Assembly (NCBI RefSeq): GCF_000179635.2 | Contig: NC_014833.1 | Coordinates: 1,080,001-1,112,000, forward strand | Source: Ruminococcus albus 7 = DSM 20455 | Lineage (GTDB): Bacteria > Bacillota > Clostridia > Oscillospirales > Ruminococcaceae | DNA: 32,000 nucleotides | Direction of reading: 5' to 3' | Translations under genes and position numbers: made by a program | The notes under the pieces: generated by a model | The model's database searches: none | What the model was told of the DNA's origin: nothing | The model's input: only the letters and a program-made list of their open reading frames with translations | In this document: positions 3 to 19,880 of the stretch, piece by piece | Layout of the letters: each line of letters opens with the position of its first letter | Position numbering within the stretch: the stretch's first letter is position 1

Positions 3-3000
3 ATGAAGGAATCTGCAGGCAGAGATGGTATAGCGAGGGAGTACGAAACACCATCGGCTATGCATGGGGTCGTTGATTCTATCATAAAGAATATGCAGTC
101 TGTATCAGAAGAACTGGCTGCTATACCCGTAAATGCGGAAGCTACAGTTATCGGCAACAATGCTTACATCAGCGGTGACGGTTATCCCGACAATGCTGTG
201 CTGGTAGTTGACGGTGATAAGATAGCTCCCTATGTTGCTGAGAGCGGTAAGCTCCATATTGAGCTGAAGGGTGAGCAGATGGTCATATTCAACTTTGATG
301 AACTGACCGAAGCAAGGATAGACGAATTCAACATCAAGAGAGCTGAGGATAATGATTATCAGATTTCTACAACACCTTCAAACGAGAATACTCTCGAACA
401 CGGCAAGAACTACTGGCTGGATCAGAACGCTACCAGATATGTGGTATGGAACCTGAAGTCAGTCAAGGCTCTTGATATCAACAAGGCAACAGGTATATTC
501 CTTATACCCGATGATGATTCTGTTACACGTATCAAGGGTACAAGCTCGGGCTGGCTGGAATCTGCAGGCTATGTCAACAACCCTGACGGTGAGTGGCACT
601 TCCTGTACACAGACCTGCCGAGAAATACCACTGTGATCTCTGTAGATAAGAAAGATATCACAGGAGAGGCAGAGGTAAAGGGCGCTCAGCTGCGCATAAC
701 CACTGCTGAAGGTGAACCTGTATTCTCATGGGAATCCGACGGTAATACACACGAACTCAGACTTGCACCCGGCGATTATGTGCTGGAAGAAACAGGCAAC
801 GAGTTTGAAGCTGATGACGGTACCATATATAAGGTAATACCTTCAAAGGTAAGCTTTACTGTAAAGGCTGATGCAGATCAGGAATCCTACGGCTGCACAG
901 TTGAGAACGTAAAGGGCACTCAGCGTGCTGCTGACAGTGATTCGGACACAGGATATTATCTGTATAACGGCAGCAAGCAGCTGTTCACAGTATGTGATGC
1001 TGAGAGAGTATCTACCACAAAGGTAACTATCAACAAGCTTGATATAACAGGTGCTGAAGAACTGAACGGCGCAGTGCTGACCATAAAGGACAGCAAGGGC
1101 AGAACAGTAACAGGTACACCATGGACTTCTGCTAAGGGCAAGAAGCTTGAGGTCGAGCTTGCAGACGGTACATACACCCTGACCGAGACAGGCGACATGA
1201 TCACTGATTCGGAAGGAAACGAGTACGAAGTAATTGACAGCACACTCACCTTCAAGGTTGAGGACGGAAAGGTCACTACAGTAAAGAATGATACTGTAGA
1301 TGACGGTGTGAGCAGCTATTACGACGTTGACAGCTTTAACAATACTATCACTGTCAACGATGCTATGAAGCCTGCCGCAGCACCTGCTAAGGTCACTATA
1401 ACCAAGACCGATATCACAGGTGAAAAGGAGATCATAGGTGCTATACTGACCATTGTGGATCAGAACGGCAATACTGTTGAGGGAACACCCTGGACTACCC
1501 GCAGGAACAACAACAAGCTGGAGCTTGAACTTGCTGAGGGTACTTACACACTGACCGAAACACAGGGCAACAACCATATCGTTGACGAAGATGGTAATGA
1601 GTATGAAGTGATCGAGAGCTCACTGGTATTCAAGATCGAGGACGGCAAGGTGACCGAGGTCATCAACGATACAAGCAGAGACAACGGCGAAGGCTTCTTC
1701 AACGTTAACAGTGATACCAACGATATCATTATCAACGATGCTATGAAGTCCAACGACATAGTTACTGCAAAGGTCAAGATAGGCAAGACCGATATCACAG
1801 GTGAGAATGAGGTCGAGAACGCAAGGCTCAGCCTTTCCGTAAAGGGACTTTCCTATGATATGATCCAGACTATCATTGATAGTAATGAGGGTAATGGCCT
1901 GAAGAACTGGACTACAGCTCAGAACGGCGAGATCTTCACAATGAGCTGGGTATCCGGCAATAAGGCAGCGAACATCAAGGGTCTTGTTCCTGCAACTTAC
2001 ACACTTACCGAAACAGGTGACGCATTCGAGTATAACGGTGTTACCTATGAGGTGCTTGATTCTGAGGTAGTATTTGTTGTCAATGAGAGCGGAAAGATCG
2101 TTTACAGATCAGTACCTGCTCCATCTGATGAGAGAGTTCCTGCGAATTCCACAAGAAGCTATGCTAAGGCAAGCGGTACTACCATAACGATATGTGATGC
2201 TGCCAGAACAGATATCACAGTTTCCAAGAAGGACATAACCGCTTCTGAGGAAGTAAAGGGCGCACATCTTGTTATTGCGAACCGCGTCGGCGATGTCATC
2301 GAGGAATGGGATTCAAACGGCACAGATCACATTGTCAAGGGTCTGGCAAACGGCACTTACACACTGACCGAAACAGCTGTTGATGCTGAACAGGCAGGCG
2401 CTGAGTACAAGATCATTGATTCTGTAGTTACCTTTACTGTACTTAACGGCAAGATAACTGATGTATCAAGCAGTGTACTTGCTGACAAGGCAGAGAACGG
2501 TTCTGAGGACGGTTTTGTTCTTTGCGACAAGGACAGCAACACCATAACCGTATGCGATGCAAAGAAGACCACCAAGGTAATAATCAACAAGTTCGACATA
2601 ACAGGCAAGGAAGAACTGGACGGCGCAGTGCTGACCATCAAGGACAGCGAGAACAGAACCGTAACAGGCACTCCCTGGACATCACAGAAGGGCAAGAAGC
2701 TTGAAGTTGAACTTGAAAACGGCACATATACTCTGACCGAAACAGGTGACAAGATCACCGATGCAGAGGGCAACGAGTATGAAGTTATCGACAGCACTCT
2801 GACCTTCAAGGTAGAGGACGGCAAGGTAACAGTTGTTGAAAACAACACAAACAGCAACAATGGTGAAGGCTTCTATGCAGTAGATAGCGATACTAATACT
2901 ATCACAGTAAATGATGCAAAGAAGACCACCAAGGTAATCATCAACAAGTTCGACATAACAGGCAAGGAAGAACTGGACGGCGCAGTGCTGACTATAAAGG

Positions 3001-6000
3001 ACAGCGAGGGCAGGACAGTAACAGGTACTCCCTGGACATCACAGAAGGGCAAGAAGCTTGAAGTTGAACTTGAAAACGGCACATATACTCTGACCGAAAC
3101 AGGTGATAAGATCACCGATGCAGAGGGCAACGAGTATGAAGTTATCGACAGCACTCTGACCTTCAAGGTTGAGGACGGCAAGGTAACAGTTGTTGAAAAC
3201 AACACAAACAGCAACAATGGTGAAGGCTTCTATGCTGTAGATAGCGATACTAATACTATCACCGTCAACGATGCTAAGAAGACCACCAAGGTAATAATCA
3301 ACAAGTTTGACATAACAGGCAAGGAAGAACTGGACGGCGCAGTGCTGACCATAAAGGACAGCGAGGGCAGGACAGTAACAGGTACTCCCTGGACTTCCGC
3401 TAAGAATAAGAAGCTTGAAGTTGAACTTGAAAACGGCACATATACTCTGACCGAAACAGGTGACAAGATCACCGATGCAGAGGGCAACGAGTATGAAGTT
3501 ATCGACAGCACTCTGACCTTCAAGGTAGAGAATGGCAAGGTAACAGTTGTTGAGAACAATACAAATTCCAACAGCGGTGAGGGCTTCTATGCAGTAGATA
3601 GCGATACTAATACTATCACAGTAAATGATGCAAAGAAGACCACCAAGGTAATAATCAACAAGTTCGATATCACAGGCAAGGAAGAACTGGACGGCGCAGT
3701 GCTGACTATAAAGGACAGCAAGGGCAGAACAGTAACAGGTACTCCCTGGACTTCCGCTAAGAATAAGAAGCTTGAAGTTGAACTTGAAAACGGCACATAT
3801 ACTCTGACTGAAACAGGTGATAAGATCACCGATGCTGAGGGCAACGAGTATGAAGTTATCGACAGCACTCTGACCTTCAAGGTAGAGGACGGCAAGGTAA
3901 CAGTTGTTGAAAACAACACAAATTCCAACAATGGTGAAGGCTTCTATGCAGTAGATAGCGATACTAATACTATCACCGTCAACGATGCTAAGAAGACCAC
4001 CAAGGTAATAATCAACAAGTTCGATATAACAGGCAAGGAAGAACTGGACGGCGCAGTGCTGACTATCAAGGACAGCGAGGGCAGGACAGTAACAGGCACT
4101 CCCTGGACTTCTGCTAAGGGCAAGAAGCTTGAAGTTGAACTTGAAAACGGCACATATACTCTGACCGAAACAGGCGATAAGATCACCGATGCAGAGGGCA
4201 ACGAGTATGAAGTTATCGACAGCACTCTGACCTTCAAGGTTGAGAATGGCAAGGTAACAGTTGTTGAGAACAACACAAACAGCAACAATGGTGAAGGCTT
4301 CTATGCAGTAGATAGCGATACTAATACTATCACTGTAAATGATGCTAAGAAGACCACCAAGGTAATAATCAACAAGTTCGATATAACAGGCAAGGAAGAA
4401 CTGGACGGCGCAGTGCTGACCATAAAGGACAGCGAGGGCAGGACCGTAACAGGCACTCCATGGACTTCACAGAAGGGCAAGAAGCTTGAAGTTGAACTTG
4501 AAAACGGCACATATACTCTGACCGAAACAGGTGACAAGATCACCGATGCAGAGGGCAACGAGTATGAAGTTATCGACAGCACTCTGACCTTCAAGGTAGA
4601 GGACGGCAAGGTAACAGTTGTTGAAAACAACACAAACAGCAATAATGGTGAAGGCTTCTATGCAGTAGATAGCGATACTAATACTATCACAGTAAATGAT
4701 GCAAAGAAGACCACCAAGGTGATCATCAACAAGTTCGACATAACAGGCAAGGAAGAACTGGACGGCGCAGTGCTGACTATCAAGGACAGCGAGAACAGAA
4801 CCGTAACAGGCACTCCCTGGACTTCACAGAAGGGCAAGAAGCTTGAAGTTGAACTTGAAAACGGCACATATACTCTGACCGAAACAGGTGACAAGATCAC
4901 CGATGCAGAGGGCAACGAGTATGAAGTTATCGACAGCACTCTGACCTTCAAGGTTGAGAATGGCAAGGTAACAGTTGTTGAGAACAACACAAACAGCAAC
5001 AATGGCGAGGGCTTCTATGCAGTAGATAGCGATACTAATACTATCACCGTCAACGATGCTAAGAAGACCACCAAGGTAATAATCAACAAGTTCGATATCA
5101 CAGGCAAGGAAGAACTGGACGGCGCAGTGCTGACCATAAAGGACAGCGAGAACAGAACCGTAACAGGCACTCCCTGGACTTCTGCTAAGAATAAGAAGCT
5201 TGAAGTTGAACTTGAAAACGGCACATATACTCTGACCGAAACAGGTGACAAGATCACCGATGCAGAGGGCAACGAGTATGAAGTTATCGACAGCACTCTG
5301 ACCTTCAAGGTAGAGGACGGCAAGGTAACAGTTGTTGAAACAACACAAACAGCAATAATGGTGAAGGCTTCTATGCAGTAGATAGCGATACTAATACTAT
5401 CACAGTAAATGATGCAAAGAAGACCACCAAGGTGATCATCAACAAGTTCGACATAACAGGCAAGGAAGAACTGGACGGCGCAGTGCTGACCATAAAGGAC
5501 AGCGAGGGCAGGACAGTAACAGGCACTCCCTGGACATCACAGAAGGGCAAGAAGCTTGAAGTTGAACTTGAAAACGGCACATATACTCTGACCGAAACAG
5601 GTGATAAGATCACCGATGCAGAGGGCAACGAGTATGAAGTTATCGACAGCACTCTGACCTTCAAGGTAGAGGACGGCAAGGTAACAGTTGTTGAAAACAA
5701 CACAAACAGCAATAATGGTGAAGGCTTCTATGCAGTAGATAGCGATACTAATACTATCACCGTCAACGATGCAAAGAAGACCACCAAGGTAATAATCAAC
5801 AAGTTTGACATAACAGGCAAGGAAGAACTGGACGGCGCAGTGCTGACCATAAAGGACAGCGAGGGCAGGACAGTAACAGGTACTCCCTGGACTTCCGCTA
5901 AGAATAAGAAGCTTGAAGTTGAACTTGAAAACGGCACATATACTCTGACCGAAACAGGTGATAAGATCACCGATGCAGAGGGCAACGAGTATGAAGTTAT

Positions 6001-7882
6001 CGACAGCACTCTGACCTTCAAGGTAGAGGACGGCAAGGTAACAGTTGTTGAAAACAACACAAATTCCAACAGCGGTGAGGGCTTCTATGCAGTAGATAGC
6101 GATACTAATACTATCACCGTCAACGATGCAAAGAAGACCACCAAGGTAATAATCAACAAGTTTGACATAACAGGCAAGGAAGAATTGGACGGCGCAGTGC
6201 TGACCATAAAGGACAGCGAGGGCAGGACAGTAACAGGCACTCCCTGGACTTCACAGAAGGGCAAGAAGCTTGAAATTGAACTTGAAAACGGCACATATAC
6301 TCTGACCGAAACAGGTGATAAGATCACCGATGCAGAGGGCAACGAGTATGAAGTTATCGACAGCACTCTGACCTTCAAGGTAGAGGACGGCAAGGTAACA
6401 GTTGTTGAAAACAACACAAACAGCAACAATGGTGAGGGCTTCTATGCAGTAGATAGCGATACTAATACTATCACTGTAAATGATGCTAAGAAGTCTAATG
6501 TAACTATTACCAAAGTAGTTATCAAGAAGACTGATATCACAGGTACAGAGGAGATCACAGGTGCTGTACTGACAGTCAAGGATTCTGACGGCAATACTGT
6601 AACAGGTACACCTTGGACTTCCGGCAAGGACGGCAAGGAACTGGAACTCGAGCTGACAAACGGTACTTATACTCTTACTGAGGAAGCCGGCAACAATCAT
6701 ATAGTTGATGCGAACGGCAACGAGTACGAGGTGATTGAAAGCGTTCTGACTTTCAAGGTCGAAAACGGCATGGTAACTGAGGTCATCAATGATACTGAAA
6801 AGGGTAACGGCGAGGGCTTCTTTGAAGTTGATTCTGATAGCAATACTATCACGGTCAACGATGCTATGAAGTCCAATGAAACTACTACCATTGTAGTTAT
6901 CAAGAAGACCGATATCACAGGTACAGAGGAGATCACAGGTGCTGTACTGACAGTTAAGGATTCTGACGGCAATACCGTAACAGGTACACCTTGGACTTCC
7001 GGTAAGGACGGCAGTGAGCTGGAGCTCGAACTTGAAAACGGTACATATACTCTGACCGAAACAGGTGACACCATTACCGATGCAAACGGCAACGAGTATG
7101 AAGTTATCGACAGCACTCTCACCTTCAAGGTTGAGGACGGCAAGGTAACAGTTGTTGAAAACAACACTGATAAGGACAGCGGTGAAGGCTTCTTTGAGGT
7201 TGATTCCGATAGCAACACTATCACCGTCAACGATGCAAAGAAGACTGATAAGACTACTACCAGAGTTGTTATCAAGAAGACCGATATCACAGGTACAGAG
7301 GAGATCACAGGTGCTGTACTGACAGTTAAGGATTCTGACGGCAATACCGTAACAGGTACACCTTGGACTTCCGGTCAGGACGGCAGTGAGCTGGAGCTCG
7401 AACTGGAGAACGGCACATATACTCTGACCGAAACAGGTGATACCATTACCGATGCAAACGGCAACGAGTATGAAGTTATCGACAGTACTCTCACCTTCAT
7501 GGTAGAGGAAGGCAAGGTAACAGTTGTTGAAAACAGCACCGATAAGGACAGCGGCGAGGGCTTCTTCGAGGTCGATTCCGATAGCAACACTATCACTGTC
7601 AACGATGCAAAGAAGACTGATGACAGCTCGAAGCGTGATCGTGATGATGATTCTGCTACGGTAGAAGATAGTGACGATTCGGATTCCGCTTCTTCAAGCG
7701 GAGGTCCTGACAGCTCTAGCAGCAAGACTTCGACAACTTCGTCTTCAACATCTACCTCTACAAACACAAGCAACCCCAATACAGGTGCAAGAGTTCTGAT
7801 AAATACAGCAGAATTCGTAGCAGCGGTAGGTCTGGGCTTCCTGGCTATCAGACGCAAAAAGAACGACGAAGACGATCAGTGA
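3..7882 (+). pseudogene. Giant repetitive cell-wall-anchored surface protein or adhesin with about 19 SpaA/CnaB-like prealbumin-fold modules. The frame is broken by a 1-nt deletion, and the 5' end probably lies upstream of the window.
   Basis: ORFs 3..5381 and 5432..7882 lie in different + frames but encode the same 119-aa module (KKTTKVIINKFDITGKEELDGAVLTIKDS..GTYTLTETGD..EYEVIDSTLTFKVEDGKVTVVENN..TITVNDA). Other copies read GTTGTTGAAAACAACAC, whereas 5331-5346 reads GTTGTTGAAACAACAC (A4 to A3), which gives TAG at 5379-5381. The C-terminus has a D/S/T-rich stalk, an NPNTG sortase-type motif, a hydrophobic segment (VLINTAEFVAAVGLGFLAI) and an RRKK tail. No signal peptide is visible at the window start. 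Confidence 0.85.
2564..6489 (+). repeat. Tandem array of 11 near-identical 357-bp (119-aa) coding units inside the adhesin gene
   Basis: GAAGACCACCAAGGTAAT recurs at 2564, 2921, 3278, 3635, 3992, 4349, 4706 and 5063. It then recurs at 5419 (356-bp spacing caused by the deletion), 5776 and 6133. More diverged modules flank the array, about five upstream from ~640 and three downstream at ~6500, 6890 and 7260. Confidence 0.95.
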
Positions 7883-8742: not shown

Positions 8743-10203
8743 CTATTCGAGCGCAACGCCGTACATTCCGCAGAACGCCGCGAGATCCAGATTTTTACCT
8801 GCGCCTACCGCATTGAATTTCCATTCGCCCTTGTAGCGGTAAAGCTCACCCAGCACCATAGCTGTTACGGATGAATAGCATTCGTCCATTCTGAAGGATG
8901 CTATCTCCCTGTTGGTGCGGCTGTCGAGTATACGCGCATAAAGGTTCTGCACCATACCGAAATTGAGAGCGTGTGCGGCAGCCTCGTATATAGTGACCGC
9001 AAGTGCTATCTTTGTGACCCTTGCATCGACACGGGTGAGATCCATGATGATAGCCGCGTCATCGGGTGAATTGGGATCATCCTTGAATATCTTATAGTGC
9101 AGCCCGTTATCAGGACTGTCGGGCTGACCATAGAAAATGAACCACTCATCTCCGAGGACTTTTCCGCTGTCGCCAAGCATGAAAGCGGAGGCATCCAGTT
9201 CAACTCTGCCATCCTTGACGTCCCAGCCAAAGCATATTTTAAGCTGTTCGGCAGGTCTGCCGTCTCTGTCCTTTATGGAATATTTCTGTCCTTTAGCAAG
9301 TCTGTCGCCTGTGGGGTCTACACGGTTGCGTTTTACAGTGGGACGATTATTTGCAGGATTTGAAGCATAGCTTGCATTTGCATTGTTCACAGGCTGCTGC
9401 ACCCCGAAATTGCCATGTCCTGTATTCGGAGTATTACGCACAGGTTCCCATGCGCCATGCTGCTGATTCTGCTGAGGGGGCTGAGGCTGTGAGAATATAG
9501 CATCCAGCGGGTCGCCGGATGGCTGATTATTGTAGCCATTGTTGGGATAGCCATTCTGCGGCTGATTGTTGTAGCCGTTGTTGGGATAGCCGTTCTGCGG
9601 CTGATTGTTGTAGCCGTTGTTGGGATAGCCATTCTGCGGCTGATTGTTGTAGCCGTTGTTGAGATAACCGTTCTGCGGCTGATTGTTGTAGCCGTTATTG
9701 GGATAGCCATTCTGCGGCTGATTGTTGTAGCCGTTATTGGGATAACCGTTCTGCGGCTGATTGTTGTAGCCGTTGTTGGGATAGCTGTTCTGTGGCTGAT
9801 TGTTGTAGCCGTTGTTGGGATAGCCGTTCTGCGGCTGATTGTTGTAGCCGTTATTGGGATAGCCGTTCTGCGGCTGATTCATATTTCTGTTTACGCCGCC
9901 GTTCGGGTGGTCGATTCTGTTTGCGCCGTTAAGACCGCCGTTTTGCATGGCGCTCATAGCTACAGCGCCTACTGCTGCGCCAGTGACGAAACCTCCCACG
10001 GAGCTTGGGTTGACAATACCGCTGCCGCCCATATTACCCATCATGGGATTGCCCATACCCATTCCGCCCATCATGGGACCGCGGTTCATGATACCCATAA
10101 GGTCATTTATCGGCGGCTGGATAAAGCTGTTTGTACCGTAGTTGTTCAAGAGGTCGTTTCTGCCGAGAGCGCCTCTGGTTATCATAGGAACTATCAGACT
10201 CAT
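8743..10203 (-). CDS. TerD-domain stress protein with an N-terminal Met/Gly-rich region, a Gly/Ala hydrophobic segment and a Q/N/Y/G/P oligopeptide-repeat region
   Basis: The C-terminal ~190 aa carries TerD hallmarks (KICFGWDV..VELDASAFML...WFIFYGQ...IIMDL..V...KIALAVTIYEA...NFG.V.N.YARILD....EIA.F......SVTAMVLGELYRYKGEWKFNAVG). The N-terminal half is low complexity. The RBS GGGAGG lies 7 nt upstream of the ATG. Confidence 0.85.
   Translation of the reverse strand: MSLIVPMITRGALGRNDLLNNYGTNSFIQPPINDLMGIMNRGPMMGGMGMGNPMMGNMGGSGIVNPSSVGGFVTGAAVGAVAMSAMQNGGLNGANRIDHPNGGVNRNMNQPQNGYPNNGYNNQPQNGYPNNGYNNQPQNSYPNNGYNNQPQNGYPNNGYNNQPQNGYPNNGYNNQPQNGYLNNGYNNQPQNGYPNNGYNNQPQNGYPNNGYNNQPQNGYPNNGYNNQPSGDPLDAIFSQPQPPQQNQQHGAWEPVRNTPNTGHGNFGVQQPVNNANASYASNPANNRPTVKRNRVDPTGDRLAKGQKYSIKDRDGRPAEQLKICFGWDVKDGRVELDASAFMLGDSGKVLGDEWFIFYGQPDSPDNGLHYKIFKDDPNSPDDAAIIMDLTRVDARVTKIALAVTIYEAAAHALNFGMVQNLYARILDSRTNREIASFRMDECYSSVTAMVLGELYRYKGEWKFNAVGAGKNLDLAAFCGMYGVALE
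9521..9880 (-). repeat. 39-bp tandem coding repeat with about 9.2 copies, encoding NNQPQNGYPNNGY
   Basis: CTGATTGTTGTAGCCGTTGTTGGGATAGCC(A/G)TTCTGCGG is reiterated head to tail, with differences mostly at third codon positions. Confidence 0.95.
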
Positions 10204-14120: not shown

Positions 14121-14462
14121 TCATTCCCAGTTTTTCCATATATCGGGACAGTAACCCACAGTAGCCTGTCTGCCGTTGCGGACAACTGGTGCGGCTATGA
14201 GTGAAGGTTCTTCAAGGAGTTTTTCCCGCTTCTCCTCCATGCTGCCCAGATATTTCAGCAGGTCGGCGGTCTCGCCTTTGGCTTTGGGGTCGATGAGTTT
14301 CTCGATATCGCCTACAGCCTTCAGCACCGAATCAAATTCGCCCTTGCTCATTCCCTTGCTCACAAGGTCGATGGACTGGAATTTAATGCCGCGCTCTTTG
14401 AAATAGCGCTCTGCCTTTTTGGTATCAAAGCTTTTTGCTTTGCCGAATATTTGTATGTTCAT
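14121..14462 (-). CDS. ArsC/Spx/YffB-family (glutaredoxin-like) protein lacking the N-terminal redox cysteine
   Basis: This is a 113-aa product, MNIQIFGKAKSFDTKKAERYFKERGIKFQSIDL...AAPVVRNG. The RBS GAGGTG lies upstream of the ATG at 14460-14462. The track ORF extension to 14633 runs into the tRNA-like gene. Ser sits where family members usually carry Cys (KSFDT). Confidence 0.75.
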   Translation of the reverse strand: MNIQIFGKAKSFDTKKAERYFKERGIKFQSIDLVSKGMSKGEFDSVLKAVGDIEKLIDPKAKGETADLLKYLGSMEEKREKLLEEPSLIAAPVVRNGRQATVGYCPDIWKNWE

Positions 14463-14480
14463 TATTTTCACCTCTGTATA

Positions 14481-14509
14481 ATAATACACCGTCGTATGTG
14501 TGCTTTCAA
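14481..14509 (-). promoter_or_regulatory. Sigma-A type promoter for the ArsC-family gene
   Basis: The minus strand reads TTGAAA, a 17-nt spacer, then TATTAT. Confidence 0.5.
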
Positions 14510-14568
14510 GTATGGTTTTAAGCGACAAAGCTACAAGCTTGCCGTCATCGGAAACAGGAAAAATATAA

Positions 14569-14670
14569 GGCAGATGGCGGGAATCGAACCCGCGAGATCG
14601 CCGCAGATACCCCCGCCGTATATCACCGACCACGCATCCGCGACCGCGTTACCTCTTCGCCGCATCTGCC
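14569..14670 (-). ncRNA. tRNA-like RNA gene of 102 nt with an atypical central arm and no canonical anticodon arm found by hand
   Basis: The minus strand reads GGCAGATGCGGCGAAGAGGTAACGCGGTCGCGGATGCGTGGTCGGTGATATACGGCGGGGGTATCTGCGGCGATCTCGCGGGTTCGATTCCCGCCATCTGCC.
- Acceptor stem: a perfect 8-bp stem (GGCAGATG/CATCTGCC).
- T-arm: GCGGG-TTCGATT-CCCGC directly abuts the acceptor stem.
- D-arm: the loop AAGAGGTAA carries the GG dinucleotide.
- Central arm: nt 27-71 form one 45-nt extended hairpin.
No CCA is encoded. Confidence 0.6.
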
Positions 14671-14687
14671 GAACATCTTCTGAAAAT

Positions 14688-14716
14688 ATTATACCACAGA
14701 ATGCTGTTTAATGCAA
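14688..14716 (-). promoter_or_regulatory. Strong sigma-A type promoter driving the tRNA-like gene
   Basis: The minus strand reads TTGCAT, a 17-nt spacer, then TGG-TATAAT (an extended -10). The -10 element ends 17 nt upstream of the first G of the acceptor stem. Confidence 0.7.
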
Positions 14717-14742
14717 GCTGGAACGCGGCTTTTGAAAAATGG

Positions 14743-14772
14743 CAAAAAAATAGCAGGTCAACGGTGACCTGC
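14743..14772 (-). terminator. Intrinsic terminator, minus strand only
   Basis: An 8-bp GC-rich stem (14753-14760 with 14765-14772) has a 4-nt loop. A U-run follows on the minus strand only. Confidence 0.75.
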
Positions 14773-14866
14773 GGAAAATAAAACAAAAAAACTATGTGTA
14801 GAACAAAAGAAAGGAGACAACAAAACGGATGTTAAATCAATCTGATTATTCGATTTCCTTAACACC
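14743..14866 (-). ncRNA. Candidate small RNA of about 120 nt, delimited by a consensus promoter and an intrinsic terminator
   Basis: The predicted transcript has a 5' stem-loop (GUUAA..AAUC/GAUU..UUAAC). It then has a U/C-rich single-stranded stretch containing UUGUCUCCUUUCUUUUG, which is anti-Shine-Dalgarno-like. It ends with the terminator GCAGGUCA-CCGU-UGACCUGC followed by UAUUUUUUU. No ORF of 60 aa or more is present. Confidence 0.5.
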
Positions 14867-14872
14867 ATTTAT

Positions 14873-14901
14873 ATTATAATCGGTTTTACGAAAAAAGTCA
14901 A
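14873..14901 (-). promoter_or_regulatory. Sigma-A type promoter of the candidate sRNA
   Basis: The minus strand reads TTGACT, a 17-nt spacer, then TATAAT. Confidence 0.65.
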
Positions 14902-15247
14902 GGGGTATGGGAATGTTTTTTTGGAAACTCGCAAATTTCAGCAACTTGCACAATTTTCATTTTTTTGTGTGGCTATTTGCTCTATATAATGATTTAACAG
15001 TATAAATACGCAGTTATTACATTGTTCTTATTAATATAAAGTATAAAAAGATTGTTTTATATATTTATAAACTTATGAAGAAAGCGTATACAAACTTTTT
15101 CGTCTTTGCCAAAAATTGCTCTTTTATTTGTGCATATTTCTTGATAAACTGTTCATAATAGTTTCAGCAACGGCAAACACACCGTAATGCTGAAGATCCA
15201 GCGATTTTATGCATTAACGGAACAGCCGAAAGAAAGGAATGGTATCA

Positions 15248-15677: not shown

Positions 15678-18600
15678 TCATTTCTTTGTAATGATCAGAG
15701 ATTGTCTGCCGAGTTTAGTGTAGGTATCCATAAAGAAATCATAGGACATGGTCTGCACCTTGCCGTAATAGCTGCTGCTGTCGAAGTTTTCAACATTACC
15801 GAGTATAAAGCAGTTATTGGCATCGTCATAACCTGTCAGCACTGCAGTGTGCTGTCTGCCGTACCAGGTGAAGTTATATGTGCCTGAGCCGGGGTTAGAA
15901 TACTTCTGACCTGCGGTGATCGTCTGGGTGCAAACAGCATAGGGCTCTACCTCAGAGTACCATACTATGGGGTTGTTGCCTTTGTCGATCTCAGTTTTAA
16001 GACCGTTGATATCAAGTCCGCCGCTGACGGCAGTATTTCCAAGGTCGAGTTTACCGGGATCGAATTTCAGCTTATTGACGTTGTTGCCTGTGTAATAATC
16101 GGTGTTCAGGGCGATGTTGTAGCTGTTGCGTACGCCGATATAATTAAGGTACTGGTGTGCAGATTGTGCTACAAGAGGAGCATAACAGCCGTAGCCCACG
16201 CTGCCTTCCATGCGGTAGGGTGAACCCCAGAAACAGTAGTTGGGGTCAACGTTGACAGCGCCGTTGTAGAATGCCTGTTCGGGCATATAGTAGTCGATCA
16301 GTGTGTTTTTGCTGACATTTATACCGAACTGGTAGTTAAGTACCGATGCAAGTGCGGTTTCCTCGCAGCCGAGAACAGCAGGATTTCCGCCGAGATAGCC
16401 GTCCTGGTTGATGACCGTCAGACCGCTGTTAGCGTAGTTTTTTACGCATGAAGTAGGAACATATCCCACCTGAGTGCCGTTTGAGTTAGGCAGGAAGATC
16501 TTAGTCCAGCCGTTAGCAGGGAGATCCGTCTGCATAACTGTGTTACCGACATAAAGATTGCCAAGCTTGGTACTGCCTGTGCTTGCGTTCGCATAAATTG
16601 GTGTAGCGGTCGTACACTTTACATAGCCGTCGGTCACAACTGTAACAGTGGTAGAATAAGAACCGTATGCCTTCTGACCGTTAACGGTCTTGTATGCGCG
16701 AACTCTTGTCTTGAAGCCTGTGCGCTGTGCAAGGTTTGTGAACTTGTAGCTTCTGGCGGTCTTTGCGTCATAAGCTTTCCACTTGCCGTCTATCTGTATA
16801 GAAGCTTCATAGCCCTCAGCGCCCGAAACTGCATTCCACATGAGGGTAGCAGTTGTGGTGTCGCTGTTGTAGAAATAGCTGTTGAATGTAGGTGCGGCGA
16901 GATCGGCTTTCTGCTCGGTCTGAGTATTGCTGTCTGCACTTACGCATGAAGTAGGAACATAACCGATCTGAGTGCCGTTGGAGTTAGGCAGGAAGATCTT
17001 AGTCCAGCCGTTAGTGGGGAGATCTGTCTGCATAACTGTGTTACCGACATAAAGATTTCCAAGCTTGGTAGAACCTGTGCTTGCGTTCGCATAAATTGGT
17101 GTAGCGGTCGTACACTTAACATAGCCGTCGGTAACAACGGTAACGGTGGTAGAATAAGAACCGTATGCCTTCTGACCGTTAACGGTCTTGTATGCGCGAA
17201 CCCTTGTCTTGAAGCCTGTGCGCTGTGCAAGGTTTGTGAACTTGTAGCTTTTGGCGGTCTTTGCGTCATAAGCTTTCCATTTGCCGTCTATCTGAATAGA
17301 AGCTTCATAGCCCTCAGCGCCCGAAACTGCGTTCCACATCAGGGTAGCAGTTGTGGTGTCACTGTTGTAGAAGTAGCTGTTGAATGTAGGTGCAGCGAGA
17401 TCGGCTTTCTGCTCGGTCTGTGTGTTTGTATCTGCGCTTACGCATGAAGTAGGAACATAACCGATCTGAGTGCCGTTGGAATTAGGCAGGAAGATCTTAG
17501 TCCAGCCGTTTGCAGGAAGATCCGTCTGCATAACTGTGTTGCCGACATACAGATTTCCAAGCTTGGTAGAACCTGTGCTTGCGTTCGCATAAATTGGTGT
17601 AGCGGTCGTACACTTAACATAGCCGTCGGTAACAACGGTAACAGTGGTAGAATAAGAACCGTATGCCTTCTGACCGTTAACGGTCTTGTAAGCGCGAACC
17701 CTTGTCTTGAAGCCTGTTCTCTGTGCAAGGTTTGTGAACTTGTAGCTTCTGGCGGTCTTTGCATCGTATGCTTTCCATTTACCGTCTATCTGAATAGAAG
17801 CCTCATAACCCTCAGCGCCCGAAACTGCGTTCCACATGAGGGTAGCTGTTGTGGTGTCACTGTTGTAGAAGTAGCTGTTGAATGTGGGGGCGGCGAGATC
17901 GGCTTTCTGCTCGGTCTGTGTGTTTGTATCTGCGCTTACGCATGAAGTAGGAACATAACCGATCTGAGTGCCGTTGGAATTAGGCAGGAAGATCTTAGTC
18001 CAGCCGTTTGCAGGGAGATCCGTCTGCATAACTGTGTTACCGACATAGAGATTTCCAAGCTTGGTAGAACCTGTGCTTGCGTTCGCATAAATTGGTGTAG
18101 CGGTCGTACACTTTACATAGCCGTCGGTAACAACGGTAACAGTGGTAGAATAAGAACCGTATGCCTTCTGACCATTAACGGTCTTGTAAGCGCGAACTCT
18201 TGTCTTGAAGCCTGTGCGCTGTGCAAGGTTAGTGAACTTGTAGCTTCTGGCGGTCTTTGCGTCATAAGCTATCCACTTACCGTCTATCTGAATAGAAGCT
18301 TCGTAGCCCTCAGCCCCCGAAACTGCGTTCCACATGAGGGTAGCTGTTGTGGTGTCACTGTTGTAGAAGTAGCTGTTGAATGTAGGTGCAGCGAGATCGG
18401 CTTTCTGCTCGGTCTGTGTATTGGAATCCGCACTTACGCATGAAGTAGGAACATAACCGATCTGAGTGCCGTTGGAGTTAGGCAGGAAGATCTTAGTCCA
18501 GCCGTTTGCAGGGAGATCCGTCTGCATAACTGTGTTACCGACATAAAGATTGCCAAGCTTTGTGCTGCCTGTGCTTGCGTTCGCATAAATTGGTGTAGCG

Positions 18601-19880
18601 GTCGTACACTTAACATAGCCGTCGGTAACAACGGTAACGGTGGTAGAATAAGAACCGTATGCCTTCTGACCGTTTACAGTTTTGTATGCGCGAACCCTTG
18701 TCTTGAAGCCTGTGCGCTGTGCAAGGTTTGTGAACTTGTAGCTTCTGGCGGTCTTTGCATCGTATGCTTTCCATTTGCCGTCTATCTGAATAGAAGCCTC
18801 ATAGCCCTCAGCGCCCGAAACTGCGTTCCACATGAGGGTAGCAGTTGTGGTGTCGCTGTTGTAGAAGTAGCTGTTGAATGTGGGGGCGGCGAGATTTGCA
18901 ACAGGGTCTTGCTTGGTAACTGTGCCGCCCGTCATTTCGGCATTGGCACCTTCTGCTTCGCCAACAGAGTTGAAAGGCACGATCAGCAGCTTTACAGTGC
19001 CGCTTTTGGGGAAGTCTGTGATAAGCTGATCGGTATCGGTATCTGCTATCAGCTTGGGCTTGCCGTCACTTGCTGTATTTGTCAGGTCGTAAACGTGATA
19101 GCCTGATGCGAAATCAGCCGCCAGCCAGTCTATCTTAGCTTTGCCGTTATTATCTGTAACGGTGATACTGCCGTTTATCGTTCCGGGTTTTATTTTCAGC
19201 AGATATCCTGTGGTATCGCCGTAGTCCTTTGTACGTATACCGTCCTCGGTCATAACGTATCTCAGGGGGGCTATCTCAACTGTCAGCTTACCGTCTTTGA
19301 ACATATCATAAGGAATATCAGCTTTAAGCGAATGTGTGTCAAAAGACTTTGTCTTATCACCGTTGGTGAACTTTACGCTGTATGTATCCATATCAGCTGC
19401 AGCGTTCCAGGAAACAGACTTTGTATCCTTATCTACATTGAACTCTATCAGCTTGACATTTTGCTGCATATCTCGGGGATTCTTCACAACGGGAAGATCG
19501 GTATATACTTCGATTCTGCGCTTGCCCTTTACCTGACCTGCCAGCAGACCGAGATCGGTGATATTAACTTTGCCGTCTGCATTTGCATCGGCAGCCTTCA
19601 AACCTTTCTCATTCAGTGATTTTGCAGTTTTTATGTGTGCTGCTGCTTTTACAACATCAGTGATGTCGATCTTGCCGTCACCGTTTATATCGCCTGCAGC
19701 ATAGGGCTTGTCACCTTCGGCGTATGGGGAAAAGTCCTGATCGCCTGTGGTATTGCTGTCAGCAGAAGCTGCTGATGCGGCATCACTGTTTTCACTGTTA
19801 TCGGCAAAAGCTCCCACTGATAACTGACCTGCTGCTATAGCCAGCGAAACTGCAGCAGCGAGGATCTTTTTACATCTCAT
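15678..19880 (-). CDS. Secreted dockerin-containing multidomain protein. The layout is signal peptide, dockerin, Fn3-like modules, five Fn3-SH3b units, then a YvpB/C39-like cysteine peptidase domain.
   Basis: - Signal peptide: MRCKKILAAAVSLAIAAGQLSVGAFA.
- Dockerin: duplicated Ca-binding repeats DINGDGKIDITDV and DANADGKVNITDL.
- Repeat unit: 166 aa with an Fn3 signature (TATLMWNAVSGAEGYE..YKFTNL..RVRAY) and an SH3b-like part (GNLYVGNTVMQTDLPANGWTKIFL).
- C-terminal domain: LGCEETALASVLNY and RQHTAVLTGYD resemble the Cys and His motifs of Peptidase_C39_2/YvpB. Confidence 0.85.
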   Translation of the reverse strand: MRCKKILAAAVSLAIAAGQLSVGAFADNSENSDAASAASADSNTTGDQDFSPYAEGDKPYAAGDINGDGKIDITDVVKAAAHIKTAKSLNEKGLKAADANADGKVNITDLGLLAGQVKGKRRIEVYTDLPVVKNPRDMQQNVKLIEFNVDKDTKSVSWNAAADMDTYSVKFTNGDKTKSFDTHSLKADIPYDMFKDGKLTVEIAPLRYVMTEDGIRTKDYGDTTGYLLKIKPGTINGSITVTDNNGKAKIDWLAADFASGYHVYDLTNTASDGKPKLIADTDTDQLITDFPKSGTVKLLIVPFNSVGEAEGANAEMTGGTVTKQDPVANLAAPTFNSYFYNSDTTTATLMWNAVSGAEGYEASIQIDGKWKAYDAKTARSYKFTNLAQRTGFKTRVRAYKTVNGQKAYGSYSTTVTVVTDGYVKCTTATPIYANASTGSTKLGNLYVGNTVMQTDLPANGWTKIFLPNSNGTQIGYVPTSCVSADSNTQTEQKADLAAPTFNSYFYNSDTTTATLMWNAVSGAEGYEASIQIDGKWIAYDAKTARSYKFTNLAQRTGFKTRVRAYKTVNGQKAYGSYSTTVTVVTDGYVKCTTATPIYANASTGSTKLGNLYVGNTVMQTDLPANGWTKIFLPNSNGTQIGYVPTSCVSADTNTQTEQKADLAAPTFNSYFYNSDTTTATLMWNAVSGAEGYEASIQIDGKWKAYDAKTARSYKFTNLAQRTGFKTRVRAYKTVNGQKAYGSYSTTVTVVTDGYVKCTTATPIYANASTGSTKLGNLYVGNTVMQTDLPANGWTKIFLPNSNGTQIGYVPTSCVSADTNTQTEQKADLAAPTFNSYFYNSDTTTATLMWNAVSGAEGYEASIQIDGKWKAYDAKTAKSYKFTNLAQRTGFKTRVRAYKTVNGQKAYGSYSTTVTVVTDGYVKCTTATPIYANASTGSTKLGNLYVGNTVMQTDLPTNGWTKIFLPNSNGTQIGYVPTSCVSADSNTQTEQKADLAAPTFNSYFYNSDTTTATLMWNAVSGAEGYEASIQIDGKWKAYDAKTARSYKFTNLAQRTGFKTRVRAYKTVNGQKAYGSYSTTVTVVTDGYVKCTTATPIYANASTGSTKLGNLYVGNTVMQTDLPANGWTKIFLPNSNGTQVGYVPTSCVKNYANSGLTVINQDGYLGGNPAVLGCEETALASVLNYQFGINVSKNTLIDYYMPEQAFYNGAVNVDPNYCFWGSPYRMEGSVGYGCYAPLVAQSAHQYLNYIGVRNSYNIALNTDYYTGNNVNKLKFDPGKLDLGNTAVSGGLDINGLKTEIDKGNNPIVWYSEVEPYAVCTQTITAGQKYSNPGSGTYNFTWYGRQHTAVLTGYDDANNCFILGNVENFDSSSYYGKVQTMSYDFFMDTYTKLGRQSLIITKK
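16443..18893 (-). repeat. Tandem array of about 4.9 copies of a 498-bp (166-aa) coding unit
   Basis: TACGCATGAAGTAGGAAC recurs at 16443, 16941, 17439, 17937 and 18435, an exact 498-bp period. The copies are near-identical, with mostly synonymous differences. Confidence 0.95.

What the first reader, a model, noticed from the sequence alone, without database searches (positions are those of the whole stretch)
14569..14716. Promoter-driven 102-nt tRNA-like gene with an 8/5 acceptor/T stack but no canonical anticodon arm
A near-consensus extended -10 promoter sits 17 nt upstream of an RNA with several tRNA hallmarks.
- Acceptor stem: a perfect 8-bp stem, as seen in tRNA-Sec or G-1 tRNA-His types.
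- T-arm: a textbook GCGGG-UUCGAUU-CCCGC directly abuts the acceptor stem.
- D-loop: AAGAGGUAA carries the GG dinucleotide.
- Central arm: between the D and T arms I cannot fold a 5-bp/7-nt anticodon arm. Nucleotides 27-71 instead form one 45-nt extended hairpin. It has 11 bp, a small internal loop, 4 bp and an 8-nt loop GUGAUAUA, followed by a 6-nt linker.
There is no UCA triplet anywhere in the RNA, so it is not tRNA-Sec. No CCA is encoded.
Candidate identities are a non-canonical tRNA (an allo-tRNA-like variant or a pseudo-tRNA), a tRNA-like regulatory or decoy RNA of the kind reported as tRNA-Other in Bacillus cereus, or a degenerate tRNA that kept its promoter.
Basis: seen in the sequence. 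Interest (0 to 1): 0.65.

Follow-up and report, generated by a model that had tools for sequence, protein, structure and literature searches.

The report
Histidine-tRNA look-alike without an anticodon
This is a real small RNA gene, conserved in rumen Ruminococcus bacteria, that keeps the body of a histidine tRNA but has a long rigid hairpin where the anticodon loop should be, so it almost certainly cannot read codons and must act outside normal translation.

Summary
On the minus strand, window 14670..14569 encodes a 102-nt RNA behind a TTGcat-17-TGgTATAAT promoter. It has an 8-bp acceptor stem, a 3-bp D arm, a GCGGG-UUCGAUU-CCCGC T arm and a 45-nt hairpin in place of the anticodon arm.

It is not a chance fold or a decaying pseudogene. 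Homologues occur in at least 11 species-level genomes (R. albus KH2T6 and AR67, other Ruminococcus, Oscillospiraceae MAGs). Thirteen of 31 base pairs show compensatory changes and 96.8% of pair cells are paired, against 30-58% in slid controls.

Outside the long arm the RNA closely matches Firmicutes tRNA-His, including the extra G-1 paired to C73, U8-G9, the D arm and the T arm. Rfam's tRNA model scores it at 36.7 bits (cut-off 29) with a 38-nt insert in place of the 7-nt anticodon loop. The arm is an 11-bp helix, a conserved 3x3 internal loop (GUG/GGG) and a variable hairpin. No consistent anticodon can be read.

No protein gene is a conserved neighbour, and I found no match to any other Rfam family and no description in the papers searched.

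Best reading: a tRNA-His-derived, non-decoding tRNA-like RNA that is matured like a tRNA and probably charged by HisRS. Its function is unknown.

The parts
14711..14716 (-). -35 element TTGCAT (3 of 6 to consensus)
   Evidence: Sequence. Conserved as TTGCAT in R. albus loci L034, L043 and L062 with the same 17-nt spacing.
14688..14696 (-). Extended -10 element TGgTATAAT
   Evidence: Sequence. TG and TATAAT are conserved in the R. albus clade while the spacer differs.
14671..14687 (-). 17 nt between the -10 element and the RNA; the predicted transcription start is near 14681, leaving a roughly 10-nt 5' leader (inferred RNase P substrate)
   Evidence: Position relative to the -10 element. The start site is inferred, not measured.
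14663..14670 (-). Acceptor stem 5' strand GGCAGAUG; the first G is G-1
   Evidence: Pairs with 14576..14569. Rfam's tRNA alignment starts at the second G (14669) and puts C at the discriminator position. The G-1:C73 pair is G-C in 10 of 10 sequences.
14646..14660 (-). D arm GCG-AAGAGGUAA-CGC (3 bp, 9-nt loop with GG), preceded by C8-G9 (U8 in all other family members)
   Evidence: 2 of 3 stem pairs show compensatory changes and 100% of cells are paired. Nearly identical to the Firmicutes tRNA-His D arm GCGAAGUGGUUAACGC.
14634..14644 (-). Long arm, lower helix 5' strand GUCGCGGAUGC (11 bp with 14610..14600)
   Evidence: 4 of 11 pairs show compensatory changes. The U-G pair at columns 28/72 is kept in 9 of 10 sequences and the G-U pair at columns 32/68 in 10 of 10.
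14631..14633 (-). Internal loop 5' side, GUG (conserved; GAG in L024)
   Evidence: Alignment A2.
14615..14630 (-). Apical hairpin GUCG-GUGAUAUA-CGGC (sequence and length vary between species, pairing is kept)
   Evidence: 3 of 4 pairs show compensatory changes. Loop sequences differ in every clade.
14611..14614 (-). Internal loop 3' side, GGGG (GGG in all other members)
   Evidence: Alignments A1 and A2.
14600..14610 (-). Long arm, lower helix 3' strand GUAUCUGCGGC
14594..14599 (-). Variable-loop-like linker GAUCUC (GAUYUC in the family)
   Evidence: Conserved in the alignment. Corresponds to CAUUC of tRNA-His.
14577..14593 (-). T arm GCGGG-UUCGAUU-CCCGC
   Evidence: 2 of 5 pairs show compensatory changes and 100% of cells are paired.
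14569..14576 (-). Acceptor stem 3' strand CAUCUGC plus C73 (paired to G-1); no CCA follows
14558..14568 (-). U/A-rich 3' trailer UUAUAUUUUUC (inferred RNase Z or termination region)
   Evidence: Sequence. Trailers start with U or A in 13 of the 14 loci examined (C in L054) and none encodes CCA.

Best explanation
Window 14670..14569 (minus strand) is a member of a small, conserved family of tRNA-His-derived RNAs found in rumen and hindgut Ruminococcus and Oscillospiraceae.

Architecture:
- The RNA keeps the whole aminoacyl-acceptor half and elbow of a Firmicutes histidine tRNA: the G-1:C73 extra pair, a 7-bp acceptor stem, the D arm, the T arm and a short variable loop.
- The 7-nt anticodon loop is replaced. 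The 5-bp anticodon stem continues as an 11-bp helix, then a conserved 3x3 purine-rich internal loop (5' GUG / 3' GGG), then a variable capping hairpin.

How it most likely works:
1. It is transcribed on its own. The promoter is shown for the R. albus clade. Elsewhere the gene follows a same-strand gene closely and is probably co-transcribed.
2. It is cut by RNase P so that G-1 is retained, trimmed at the CCA-less, U-rich 3' trailer, and given CCA (inferred from its tRNA features).
3. It is recognised, and probably histidylated, by HisRS. The main HisRS determinant, G-1:C73, is invariant (inferred).
4. It cannot decode, because the arm is about 10 layers too long and offers no anticodon loop (shown from the structure).
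5. It therefore acts off the ribosome. The conserved internal loop of the long arm would be the handle for a partner protein, for example as a histidine-charging-dependent signal or a non-ribosomal His carrier (speculative).
For: - A real family: a pattern scan of one genome for each of 185,579 species found 11 true homologues among 34 hits, including cultured R. albus KH2T6 and AR67. Three more copies came from metagenomes.
- Structure: on 10 distinct sequences, 96.8% of pair cells are paired against 30-58% when partners are slid. 13 of 31 pairs carry compensatory changes, and these occur in all five helices.
- Cloverleaf versus rod: the rod-like alternative that RNAalifold prefers breaks whenever D-stem or T-stem columns vary, while the cloverleaf D and T stems stay 100% paired.
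- Purifying selection: the RNA is 93-96% identical between the window and R. albus or L026. Upstream DNA is about 77% identical and the neighbouring coding gene 88%.
- tRNA-His core: side-by-side comparison with ARAGORN-confirmed tRNA-His genes from records labelled as Listeria, Enterococcus and Staphylococcus phages (probably host DNA) shows the same G-1, U8-G9, D arm and T arm.
- Model scores: after the family itself, the highest-scoring match to the family covariance model is a Firmicutes tRNA-His, and three of these score 49, 44 and 43 bits. Rfam's tRNA model scores the window RNA at 36.7 bits (cut-off 29). That alignment starts at the second G, puts C at the discriminator and has a 38-nt insert for the anticodon loop (L021 and L044 behave the same).
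- Charging precedent: G-1 tRNAs with non-His anticodons are charged efficiently by E. coli HisRS yet are not used in translation (PMC5389517).
- Not cis-acting: neighbours differ in every clade, including ppk1, a CDP-alcohol transferase, NeuB and glycosyltransferases, the Der GTPase, GNAT, GtrA, and a response regulator with an ArsC-like gene.
Against: - No expression, end-mapping or aminoacylation data exist. Steps 2, 3 and 5 are inference.
- A Flavobacteriales tRNA-Thr scores as high (43 bits) as two of the tRNA-His genes against the family model. The His origin therefore rests mainly on G-1:C73 and the D arm.
- I could not check whether these genomes also carry a normal tRNA-His.
- There are signs of looseness in this particular lineage. 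The window copy has C8 where all others have U8, and an extra G in the internal loop. The sister strains (L010-L012, L059) have a C-A mismatch in the acceptor stem. One metagenome contig carries only the 3' 36 nt (L061).
- A strong promoter is seen only in the R. albus clade.
- No partner protein is suggested by gene neighbourhood.
Confidence: 0.55

Rival explanations
1. A non-aminoacylated structural or regulatory RNA. The tRNA-like half only provides RNase P and RNase Z processing, stability or binding to a tRNA-binding protein (for example as a HisRS sponge). The active part is the long hairpin with its GUG/GGG internal loop.
For: The most conserved non-tRNA feature is the internal loop and its closing pairs. 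The apical hairpin is free to vary. No aminoacyl-transferase or other tRNA-using enzyme is a conserved neighbour. The B. cereus pseudo-tRNA tRNA-Other is only poorly aminoacylated and acts as a regulator (PMC3399842).
Against: G-1:C73 and the acceptor stem are kept almost unchanged. That is more constraint than processing alone would need. CCA-less, U/A-rich trailers fit normal tRNA maturation.
Confidence: 0.3
2. A decaying tRNA-His pseudogene that happens to retain a promoter.
For: In the window species each strain variant carries one odd change: C8 plus an extra G in the window, and a C-A acceptor mismatch in L010-L012 and L059. Four of the 7 differences across 340 nt fall inside the 102-nt RNA. 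A 5'-truncated copy exists (L061).
Against: The RNA is present in at least 11 species at different genomic locations, with compensatory changes in every helix including the non-tRNA arm. It is more conserved than the flanking coding DNA. The family model scores the window copy at 114 bits, against 100-120 for the others.
Confidence: 0.04
3. A functional decoding tRNA that carries a short intron or insertion in the anticodon loop, which is removed after transcription.
For: Rfam's tRNA model aligns it as a tRNA with an insert in the anticodon loop. ARAGORN with introns allowed and a lowered threshold returns 'tRNA with intron' calls.
Against: - The ARAGORN calls disagree between homologues (Thr-GGU, Lys-CUU, Asp-AUC).
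- If the intron sat at the canonical 37/38 site, positions 34-36 would read AUG, GUG, AUA, GUA, AUU or UUG in different species. Position 33 would be G (A in L044) and position 37 would be C. These columns covary with the opposite strand, as helix positions do.
- There is no bulge-helix-bulge motif, because the two 3-nt loops face each other.
- From established knowledge, the only introns known in bacterial tRNA genes are group I introns of more than 200 nt.
Confidence: 0.03
4. A cis-acting leader or attenuator of the downstream response-regulator and ArsC-like operon.
For: In the R. albus clade the RNA lies upstream of, and on the same strand as, the response-regulator and ArsC-like genes. 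The gap is 35 nt in L026, 489 nt in L034 and about 107 nt to the ArsC-like gene in the window.
Against: In other clades the downstream gene is different or on the opposite strand, and a separate terminator follows the RNA (L029, L048, L052, L054). Relatives keep the response-regulator and ArsC-like operon without the RNA (L001, L013, L015). The ArsC-like gene has its own promoter-like site at 14509..14481.
Confidence: 0.03
5. A leftover attachment site or tmRNA/tRNA 3' fragment from integration of a mobile element.
For: The T arm and 3' strand resemble the tmRNA 3' end (a local tmRNA hit of 15 bits).
Against: The complete 5' half is present and pairs perfectly. No integrase or mobile-element gene is nearby. 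There are no matches in phage, plasmid or viral collections beyond the generic T arm.
Confidence: 0.01

Closest known systems
Bacterial tRNA-His (Firmicutes type)
   Same: Encoded G-1 paired with C73, giving 8 stacked pairs. U8-G9. The D arm GCG-AAGNGGU(U)AA-CGC. A short variable loop. The T arm GUGGG-UUCGAUU-CCCAC. No encoded CCA in several genes.
   Different: There is no 7-nt anticodon loop and no GUG at positions 34-36. The anticodon stem is extended to 11 bp, followed by an internal loop and a hairpin. ARAGORN does not call it.
G-1 'tRNA1' species from soil metatranscriptome polycistrons (Mukai et al. 2017, PMC5389517)
   Same: Irregular bacterial tRNAs that carry G-1. They are charged by HisRS despite a non-His anticodon and are not used in translation in E. 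coli.
   Different: They have an ordinary anticodon loop (GGU), and some are 8/4. They occur in polycistrons linked to toxin-antitoxin loci in Acidobacteria. No sequence relation was tested.
Bacillus cereus tRNA-Other (pseudo-tRNA; PMC3399842)
   Same: A chromosomal tRNA-like small RNA that stays off polysomes and acts outside translation.
   Different: tRNA-Other keeps a normal anticodon loop (Trp CCA) and works through a T-box. It is poorly charged with Lys and flanks a genomic island. The present RNA has no anticodon loop, is tRNA-His-like and has no island context.
tmRNA tRNA-like domain
   Same: An acceptor stem and T arm with a long helix where the anticodon arm would be, and no anticodon. 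The T arm gives a local tmRNA hit.
   Different: No G3:U70, no mRNA-like domain or tag reading frame, and no pseudoknots. It has a true D arm. It is only 102 nt, scores far below the tmRNA cut-off (15-28 against 47 bits), and ARAGORN finds no tmRNA.
Bacterial Y RNA (YrlA) tRNA-like module
   Same: A non-coding RNA that joins a tRNA-like element to a long protein-binding helix (own knowledge of Chen et al. 2014).
   Different: In YrlA the RNA ends lie in the Ro-binding stem and the acceptor-like stem is closed, which is the opposite topology. It is encoded next to rsr. Here there was no Rfam match at E <= 10 and no rsr-like neighbour.

Membership tests
tRNA (Rfam RF00005) | Score at or above the curated cut-off of the tRNA covariance model | tested here: met
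   36.7 bits against a cut-off of 29 when 121 nt are searched. L021 scores 37.5 and L044 37.4. The whole-window run with default filters missed it.
tRNA (functional decoder) | 5-bp anticodon stem closed by a 7-nt loop with U33, an anticodon and a purine at 37 | tested here: not met
   A 35-nt helix-forming segment replaces the loop. The model alignment needs a 38-nt insert. Columns that would be positions 33-37 are helix positions that covary. ARAGORN makes no call.
tRNA-His | Extra 5' G-1 paired with C73 | tested here: met
   G-C in 10 of 10 sequences. The Rfam alignment leaves the first G outside the 7-bp stem and puts C at the discriminator.
tRNA-His | GUG anticodon at positions 34-36 | tested here: not met
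   There is no anticodon loop. A conserved GUG exists, but in an internal loop 11 bp up the arm, and it is GAG in L024.
tRNA-His | Charged with histidine by HisRS | not testable with these tools
   Inferred only from G-1:C73 and from PMC5389517.
tRNA-Sec | UCA anticodon, long variable arm, 6-bp D stem (with an 8/5 acceptor/T arrangement) | tested here: not met
   The 8/5 arrangement is present. There is no UCA triplet, the linker is 6 nt instead of a variable arm, and the D stem is 3 bp. No tRNA-Sec hit was listed at E <= 10, although lower-scoring overlapping hits of the same clan are hidden in that output.
allo-tRNA | 8/4 or 9/3 acceptor/T arrangement with a long variable arm | tested here: not met
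   The T stem has 5 pairs, all 100% paired, and there is no variable arm.
tmRNA | G3:U70, a tag-peptide reading frame, pseudoknots, and the model cut-off | tested here: not met
   Position 3 is a C-G pair. Only local T-arm hits of 15-28 bits against a cut-off of 47. ARAGORN finds no tmRNA.
Intron-containing tRNA (bulge-helix-bulge or group I) | A splice motif and a consistent mature anticodon loop across homologues | tested here: not met
   The ARAGORN intron-mode calls are inconsistent. The two 3-nt loops face each other rather than being staggered by 4 bp. The insert is about 30 nt, far shorter than a group I intron.
cis-regulatory leader (T-box or riboswitch-like) | A conserved downstream gene class on the same strand | tested here: not met
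   Downstream genes differ or are on the opposite strand. No Rfam cis-regulatory hit near its cut-off.

The most novel reading that the evidence does not exclude
A dedicated, HisRS-charged but ribosome-excluded 'histidine carrier or sensor' RNA. It would be a tRNA-His paralogue whose anticodon loop was converted into a protein-binding rod, so that the histidylation state, or the His residue itself, is delivered to a non-translational partner. Candidates would be regulation of histidine supply or a tRNA-dependent transferase. As far as I could find, this would be the first conserved chromosomal bacterial tRNA paralogue, apart from tmRNA, that keeps its aminoacylation identity while its anticodon loop is structurally deleted.
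Probability: 0.3. Interest if true: 0.85.

Novelty: new variant of a known kind. Interest (0 to 1): 0.68.

Why it matters
Non-decoding tRNA look-alikes are rare in bacteria. The known examples are tmRNA, tRNA-Other, the cell-wall tRNA-Gly species and YrlA, and each revealed a new use of the tRNA scaffold.

This family has three useful properties:
- It is conserved and shows strong covariation.
- It is present in cultured Ruminococcus albus strains, so experiments are possible.
- It combines an intact histidine identity set (G-1:C73) with an arm that rules out decoding.

That makes one question directly testable: what does a cell do with a chargeable tRNA that cannot reach a codon?

It also exposes a blind spot in annotation. 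ARAGORN and filtered Rfam scans both miss it, so similar anticodon-replaced tRNA paralogues may be hidden in other genomes.

Tried and rejected
- Phage and plasmid BLAST of the RNA with its promoter gave only generic T-arm hits. A viral-contig pattern scan gave nothing.
- I looked for the RNA upstream of ArsC-like gene homologues in 20 loci. Only near-identical strains have it there. Relatives carry a response regulator or dtd instead, so it is not a leader of that gene.
- A metagenome scan with a pattern from the 3' half added only two full copies and one truncated copy.
- I used the spurious antisense ORF as a protein query, to reach contigs not otherwise searchable. This gave one more R. 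albus-type copy (L069) and no new diversity.
- All-against-all comparison of neighbouring ORFs across 12 loci, followed by Pfam, found no shared neighbour.
- ARAGORN with introns allowed gave inconsistent anticodons, so the calls were rejected.
- The RNAalifold consensus prefers a rod-like pairing of the D and T regions. I rejected it because it breaks where those columns vary, while the cloverleaf pairs covary.
- Six literature searches on tRNA-like, pseudo-tRNA, anticodon-less, Ruminococcus and HisRS terms found no description of this RNA.
Full report
**1. What is at the coordinates**

The feature is on the minus strand. Reading 5' to 3':
- -35 TTGCAT at 14716..14711
- a 17-nt spacer
- the extended -10 TGgTATAAT at 14696..14688
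- 17 nt
- the RNA, from 14670 to 14569

The RNA sequence is GGCAGAUG CG GCG-AAGAGGUAA-CGC G GUCGCGGAUGC GUG GUCG-GUGAUAUA-CGGC GGGG GUAUCUGCGGC GAUCUC GCGGG-UUCGAUU-CCCGC CAUCUGCC. It is followed by UUAUAUUUUU.

- a perfect 8-bp acceptor stem
- the T arm abutting it
- a D loop with GG
- a 45-nt hairpin at nucleotides 27-71 (11 bp, internal loop, 4 bp, 8-nt loop)
- a 6-nt linker
- no UCA triplet and no encoded CCA

The -35 matches the consensus at only 3 of 6 positions, so the generic promoter scan did not list it. The TG-extended -10 is perfect. ARAGORN finds no tRNA or tmRNA in the window. Rfam at gathering scores over the whole window finds nothing.

The single-sequence fold is only moderately better than shuffles (z = -3.2). 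Its minimum-energy structure is a rod, not a cloverleaf. The sequence alone therefore cannot settle the matter.

**2. Where the window comes from, and the local context**

The gene downstream on the same strand (14462..14121) encodes a 113-aa ArsC/Spx-family protein. Its closest relatives are from Ruminococcus. Near-identical loci come from rumen MAGs GCA_002393105.1 and GCA_002372055.1.

The ArsC-like gene has other upstream partners elsewhere:
- In Ruminococcus relatives with 88-91% identical ArsC-like proteins, a LuxR-type response regulator sits directly upstream.
- In others the upstream gene is dtd.

The window retains 52 nt of the 5' end and about 39 nt of the 3' end of that response-regulator gene. 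In this lineage the regulator was therefore deleted. The RNA is not a conserved leader of the ArsC-like gene.

**3. Homologues**

I scanned one genome per species with the pattern GAAGRGGTAAC-N40-70-GGTTCRAWTCC. It returned 34 hits. Of these, 23 are ordinary tRNAs or chance matches and 11 are full-length homologues of the 102-nt RNA:
- R. albus KH2T6 and AR67
- six other Ruminococcus species
- two Oscillospiraceae MAGs
- one unnamed MAG

Metagenome and protein-index searches added three more R. albus-type copies. They also found one contig in which only the 3' 36 nt remain. Nothing was found in phage, plasmid or viral collections.

The count of 11 species is a lower bound, because the pattern demanded an exact D loop and T loop.

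**4. The structure is under selection**

- 96.8% of pair cells are standard pairs, against 30-58% when the 3' partners are slid by 1-3 columns.
- 13 of 31 pairs have changes on both sides, and no shuffle out of 500 reaches this.
- Every helix contributes: acceptor 2 pairs, D stem 2 of 3, long helix 4 of 11, apical stem 3 of 4, T stem 2 of 5.

RNAalifold, which is guided by energy, prefers to pair the D region with the T region. That alternative breaks whenever columns 11, 23, 24 or 25 vary, whereas the cloverleaf D and T stems remain 100% paired. The covariation therefore chooses the cloverleaf.

Nucleotide conservation supports the same conclusion. The RNA is 93-96% identical between the window and R. 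albus or L026. Upstream DNA is about 77% identical and the adjacent coding gene 88%. This rules out a chance fold and, for practical purposes, a decaying pseudogene.

**5. What kind of tRNA-like RNA it is**

I recovered genuine tRNA-His genes, confirmed by ARAGORN with anticodon GUG, from records labelled as Listeria, Enterococcus and Staphylococcus phages; these are probably host DNA. The Listeria gene reads:

G-GCGGAUA UG GCG-AAGUGGUUAA-CGC A [CCUGA-UUGUGGU-UCAGG] CAUUC GUGGG-UUCGAUU-CCCAU UAUCCGC-C

The family consensus reads:

G-GCAGAUG UG GCG-AAGGGGUAA-CGC G [long arm] GAUUUC GUGGG-UUCRAUU-CCCAC CAUCUGC-C

Outside the anticodon arm the two are nearly superimposable. This includes the feature that in bacteria is peculiar to tRNA-His, an encoded G-1 paired with C73.

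Two independent model results agree:
- After the family itself (100-120 bits), the highest-scoring match to the family covariance model is a Firmicutes tRNA-His, and three of these score 49, 44 and 43 bits. A Flavobacteriales tRNA-Thr also reaches 43 bits, so this test alone is not exclusive.
- When only 121 nt are searched, so that Infernal's filters relax, Rfam's tRNA model scores the window RNA at 36.7 bits (cut-off 29). The alignment starts at the second G, has a 7-bp acceptor stem, puts C at the discriminator and carries a 38-nt insert where the 7-nt anticodon loop belongs. L021 and L044 behave the same way.

The earlier whole-window miss was a filter effect.

**6. The arm that replaces the anticodon loop**

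The first 5 bp occupy the anticodon-stem position. The helix then continues for 6 more pairs. It includes two wobble pairs: U-G at alignment columns 28/72, kept in 9 of 10 sequences, and G-U at columns 32/68, kept in all 10.

Next comes a closing C-G pair and a 3x3 internal loop, 5' GUG / 3' GGG. This loop is conserved, except for GAG in one Oscillospiraceae member and an extra G in the window.

Last is a capping hairpin whose sequence, stem length (4-6 bp) and loop (4-8 nt) differ between clades while its pairing is kept.

If one imagines an intron at the canonical 37/38 site, the 'anticodon' would be AUG, GUG, AUA, GUA, AUU or UUG in different species. Position 33 would be G (A in L044) and position 37 would be C. 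ARAGORN in intron mode likewise gives Thr, Lys or Asp for different homologues. These positions behave as helix positions, not as an anticodon. The two 3-nt loops face each other, so there is no bulge-helix-bulge splice motif.

The arm is roughly ten stacked layers longer than a normal anticodon arm. The RNA therefore cannot act as a decoder. This follows from the structure.

**7. Transcription and context**

In the R. albus clade (window, L010, L059, L062, L034, L043) the -35, the 17-nt spacing and the TG-extended -10 are conserved while the spacer sequence differs. This argues for a working promoter and a leader of about 10 nt.

In the other clades no comparable promoter lies within 150 nt. 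There the RNA follows a same-strand gene by 27-324 nt. In L029, L048, L052 and L054 it is followed by a clear hairpin terminator. This looks like co-transcription followed by processing, as for many tRNA genes.

Neighbouring genes are unrelated between clades: ppk1, a CDP-alcohol phosphatidyltransferase, NeuB and glycosyltransferases, the Der GTPase, GNAT, GtrA, and the response regulator with the ArsC-like gene. The RNA is therefore an independent, trans-acting gene. Gene neighbourhood gives no clue to a partner.

**8. How it most likely works**

Shown:
- It is a conserved, structured RNA with a tRNA-His core.
- The acceptor/T stack, D/T elbow nucleotides (A14, G18-G19, the UUCRAUU T loop and C48-like positions, plus U8 in every member except the window copy, which has C8) and G-1:C73 are intact.
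- There is no anticodon loop.

Inferred from established tRNA biology:
- RNase P leaves G-1, as it does for tRNA-His.
- The CCA-less trailers, which begin with U or A in 13 of the 14 loci examined (C in L054), suit RNase Z followed by CCA addition.
- HisRS, whose dominant determinant is G-1:C73, should bind and probably charge the RNA. Mukai et al. showed that irregular G-1 tRNAs with a Thr anticodon are charged by E. coli HisRS even better than tRNA-His, yet are not used in translation (PMC5389517).

Speculative: once charged or bound, the RNA acts off the ribosome. The purine-rich internal loop of the long arm would be the handle for a partner.

My estimates are about 0.85 that it is a functional, non-decoding, tRNA-His-derived RNA, about 0.45 that it is histidylated in vivo, and lower for any specific downstream role.

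**9. Caveats specific to the window copy**

The window copy has C8 where all other members have U8, an A in the D loop (shared with L024), and a fourth G in the internal loop. The sister strains have a C-A mismatch in the acceptor stem instead. Four of the 7 differences between these strains across 340 nt fall inside the RNA. One metagenome contig carries a 5'-deleted copy.

The gene may therefore be under weaker constraint, or dispensable, in some lineages. Even so, the window copy scores 114 bits against the family model, within the family range.

**10. Comparison with known systems, and novelty**

It passes Rfam's tRNA cut-off. It fails the defining features of:
- a decoding tRNA
- tRNA-Sec
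- allo-tRNA
- tmRNA
- intron-containing tRNA
- cis-regulatory leaders

YrlA was checked only through Rfam, which gave no match, and through the absence of an rsr-like neighbour. Details are in the membership table.

Functionally, the nearest precedents are the HisRS-chargeable, non-translating G-1 tRNAs of Mukai et al. and the B. cereus pseudo-tRNA tRNA-Other (PMC3399842). Both of these keep an ordinary anticodon loop. The tmRNA tRNA-like domain shares the idea of a long helix instead of an anticodon arm, but nothing else.

Six full-text literature searches found no description of this family. No Rfam family other than tRNA itself comes near its cut-off. I therefore rate it a new variant of a known kind, namely tRNA-like non-coding RNAs.

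Noticed in passing
window 14740..14910 (minus strand): A 171-nt unit directly upstream of the tRNA-like gene. It has its own promoter (TTGACT-17-TATAAT, 14901..14873) and terminator (14772..14753). It is 96.5% identical to R. albus and 93-94% identical to more distant Ruminococcus, while flanks are about 77% identical. It folds as a 5' hairpin, a long CU-rich single strand (UGUCUCCUUUCUUUUG, anti-Shine-Dalgarno-like) and a terminator. Rfam gives no match. It looks like an undescribed, very conserved small RNA, and it is also present in relatives that lack the tRNA-like RNA.
   Followed up: partly
window about 14463..14551 (minus strand): Remnants of a LuxR-type response-regulator gene: 52 nt of its 5' end and about 39 nt of its 3' end. 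The gene is intact between the RNA and the ArsC-like gene in L026 and L034, and upstream of the ArsC-like gene in L001, L013 and L015. This is a lineage-specific internal deletion.
   Followed up: partly
loci L003-L009 and L018-L020: In other Ruminococcus the same ArsC/Spx-family gene lies immediately downstream of dtd (D-aminoacyl-tRNA deacylase), overlapping it or within about 70 nt. This is a second, independent association of this small protein with tRNA-related functions. It may be coincidence.
   Followed up: no
L061:165-198: A metagenome contig from a relative of L029 and L048 in which only the 3' 36 nt of the RNA (linker, T arm, 3' acceptor strand) remain and the 5' 65 nt are deleted. 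This is either natural loss of the gene in some strains or an assembly artefact.
   Followed up: no
window 2555..7617, 16442..18895 and 9521..9879: Long, nearly perfect tandem repeats lie inside coding regions. A 357-bp unit repeats 11-14 times in the giant plus-strand ORFs. A 498-bp unit repeats 4.9 times in the 1400-aa dockerin/SH3/fn3 protein. A 39-bp unit repeats 9 times in the TerD-domain protein. The rows of 113-114-aa minus-strand 'ORFs' at 2873..6429 are shadows of the first array.
   Followed up: partly
L029, L048, L052 and L054, 10 nt upstream of the RNA: A conserved GC-rich hairpin (GGGGCGAUG...CAUCGCCCC) without a U tract sits between the upstream gene (ppk1 or a CDP-alcohol transferase) and the RNA. 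It may be a processing or stabilising element of a co-transcript.
   Followed up: no
window 14569..14670 (method note): Rfam's tRNA model scores this RNA above its cut-off only when a short stretch is searched. The standard whole-window run at gathering scores and ARAGORN both miss it. tRNA paralogues with large anticodon-loop inserts are likely to be missed systematically in routine annotation.
   Followed up: yes
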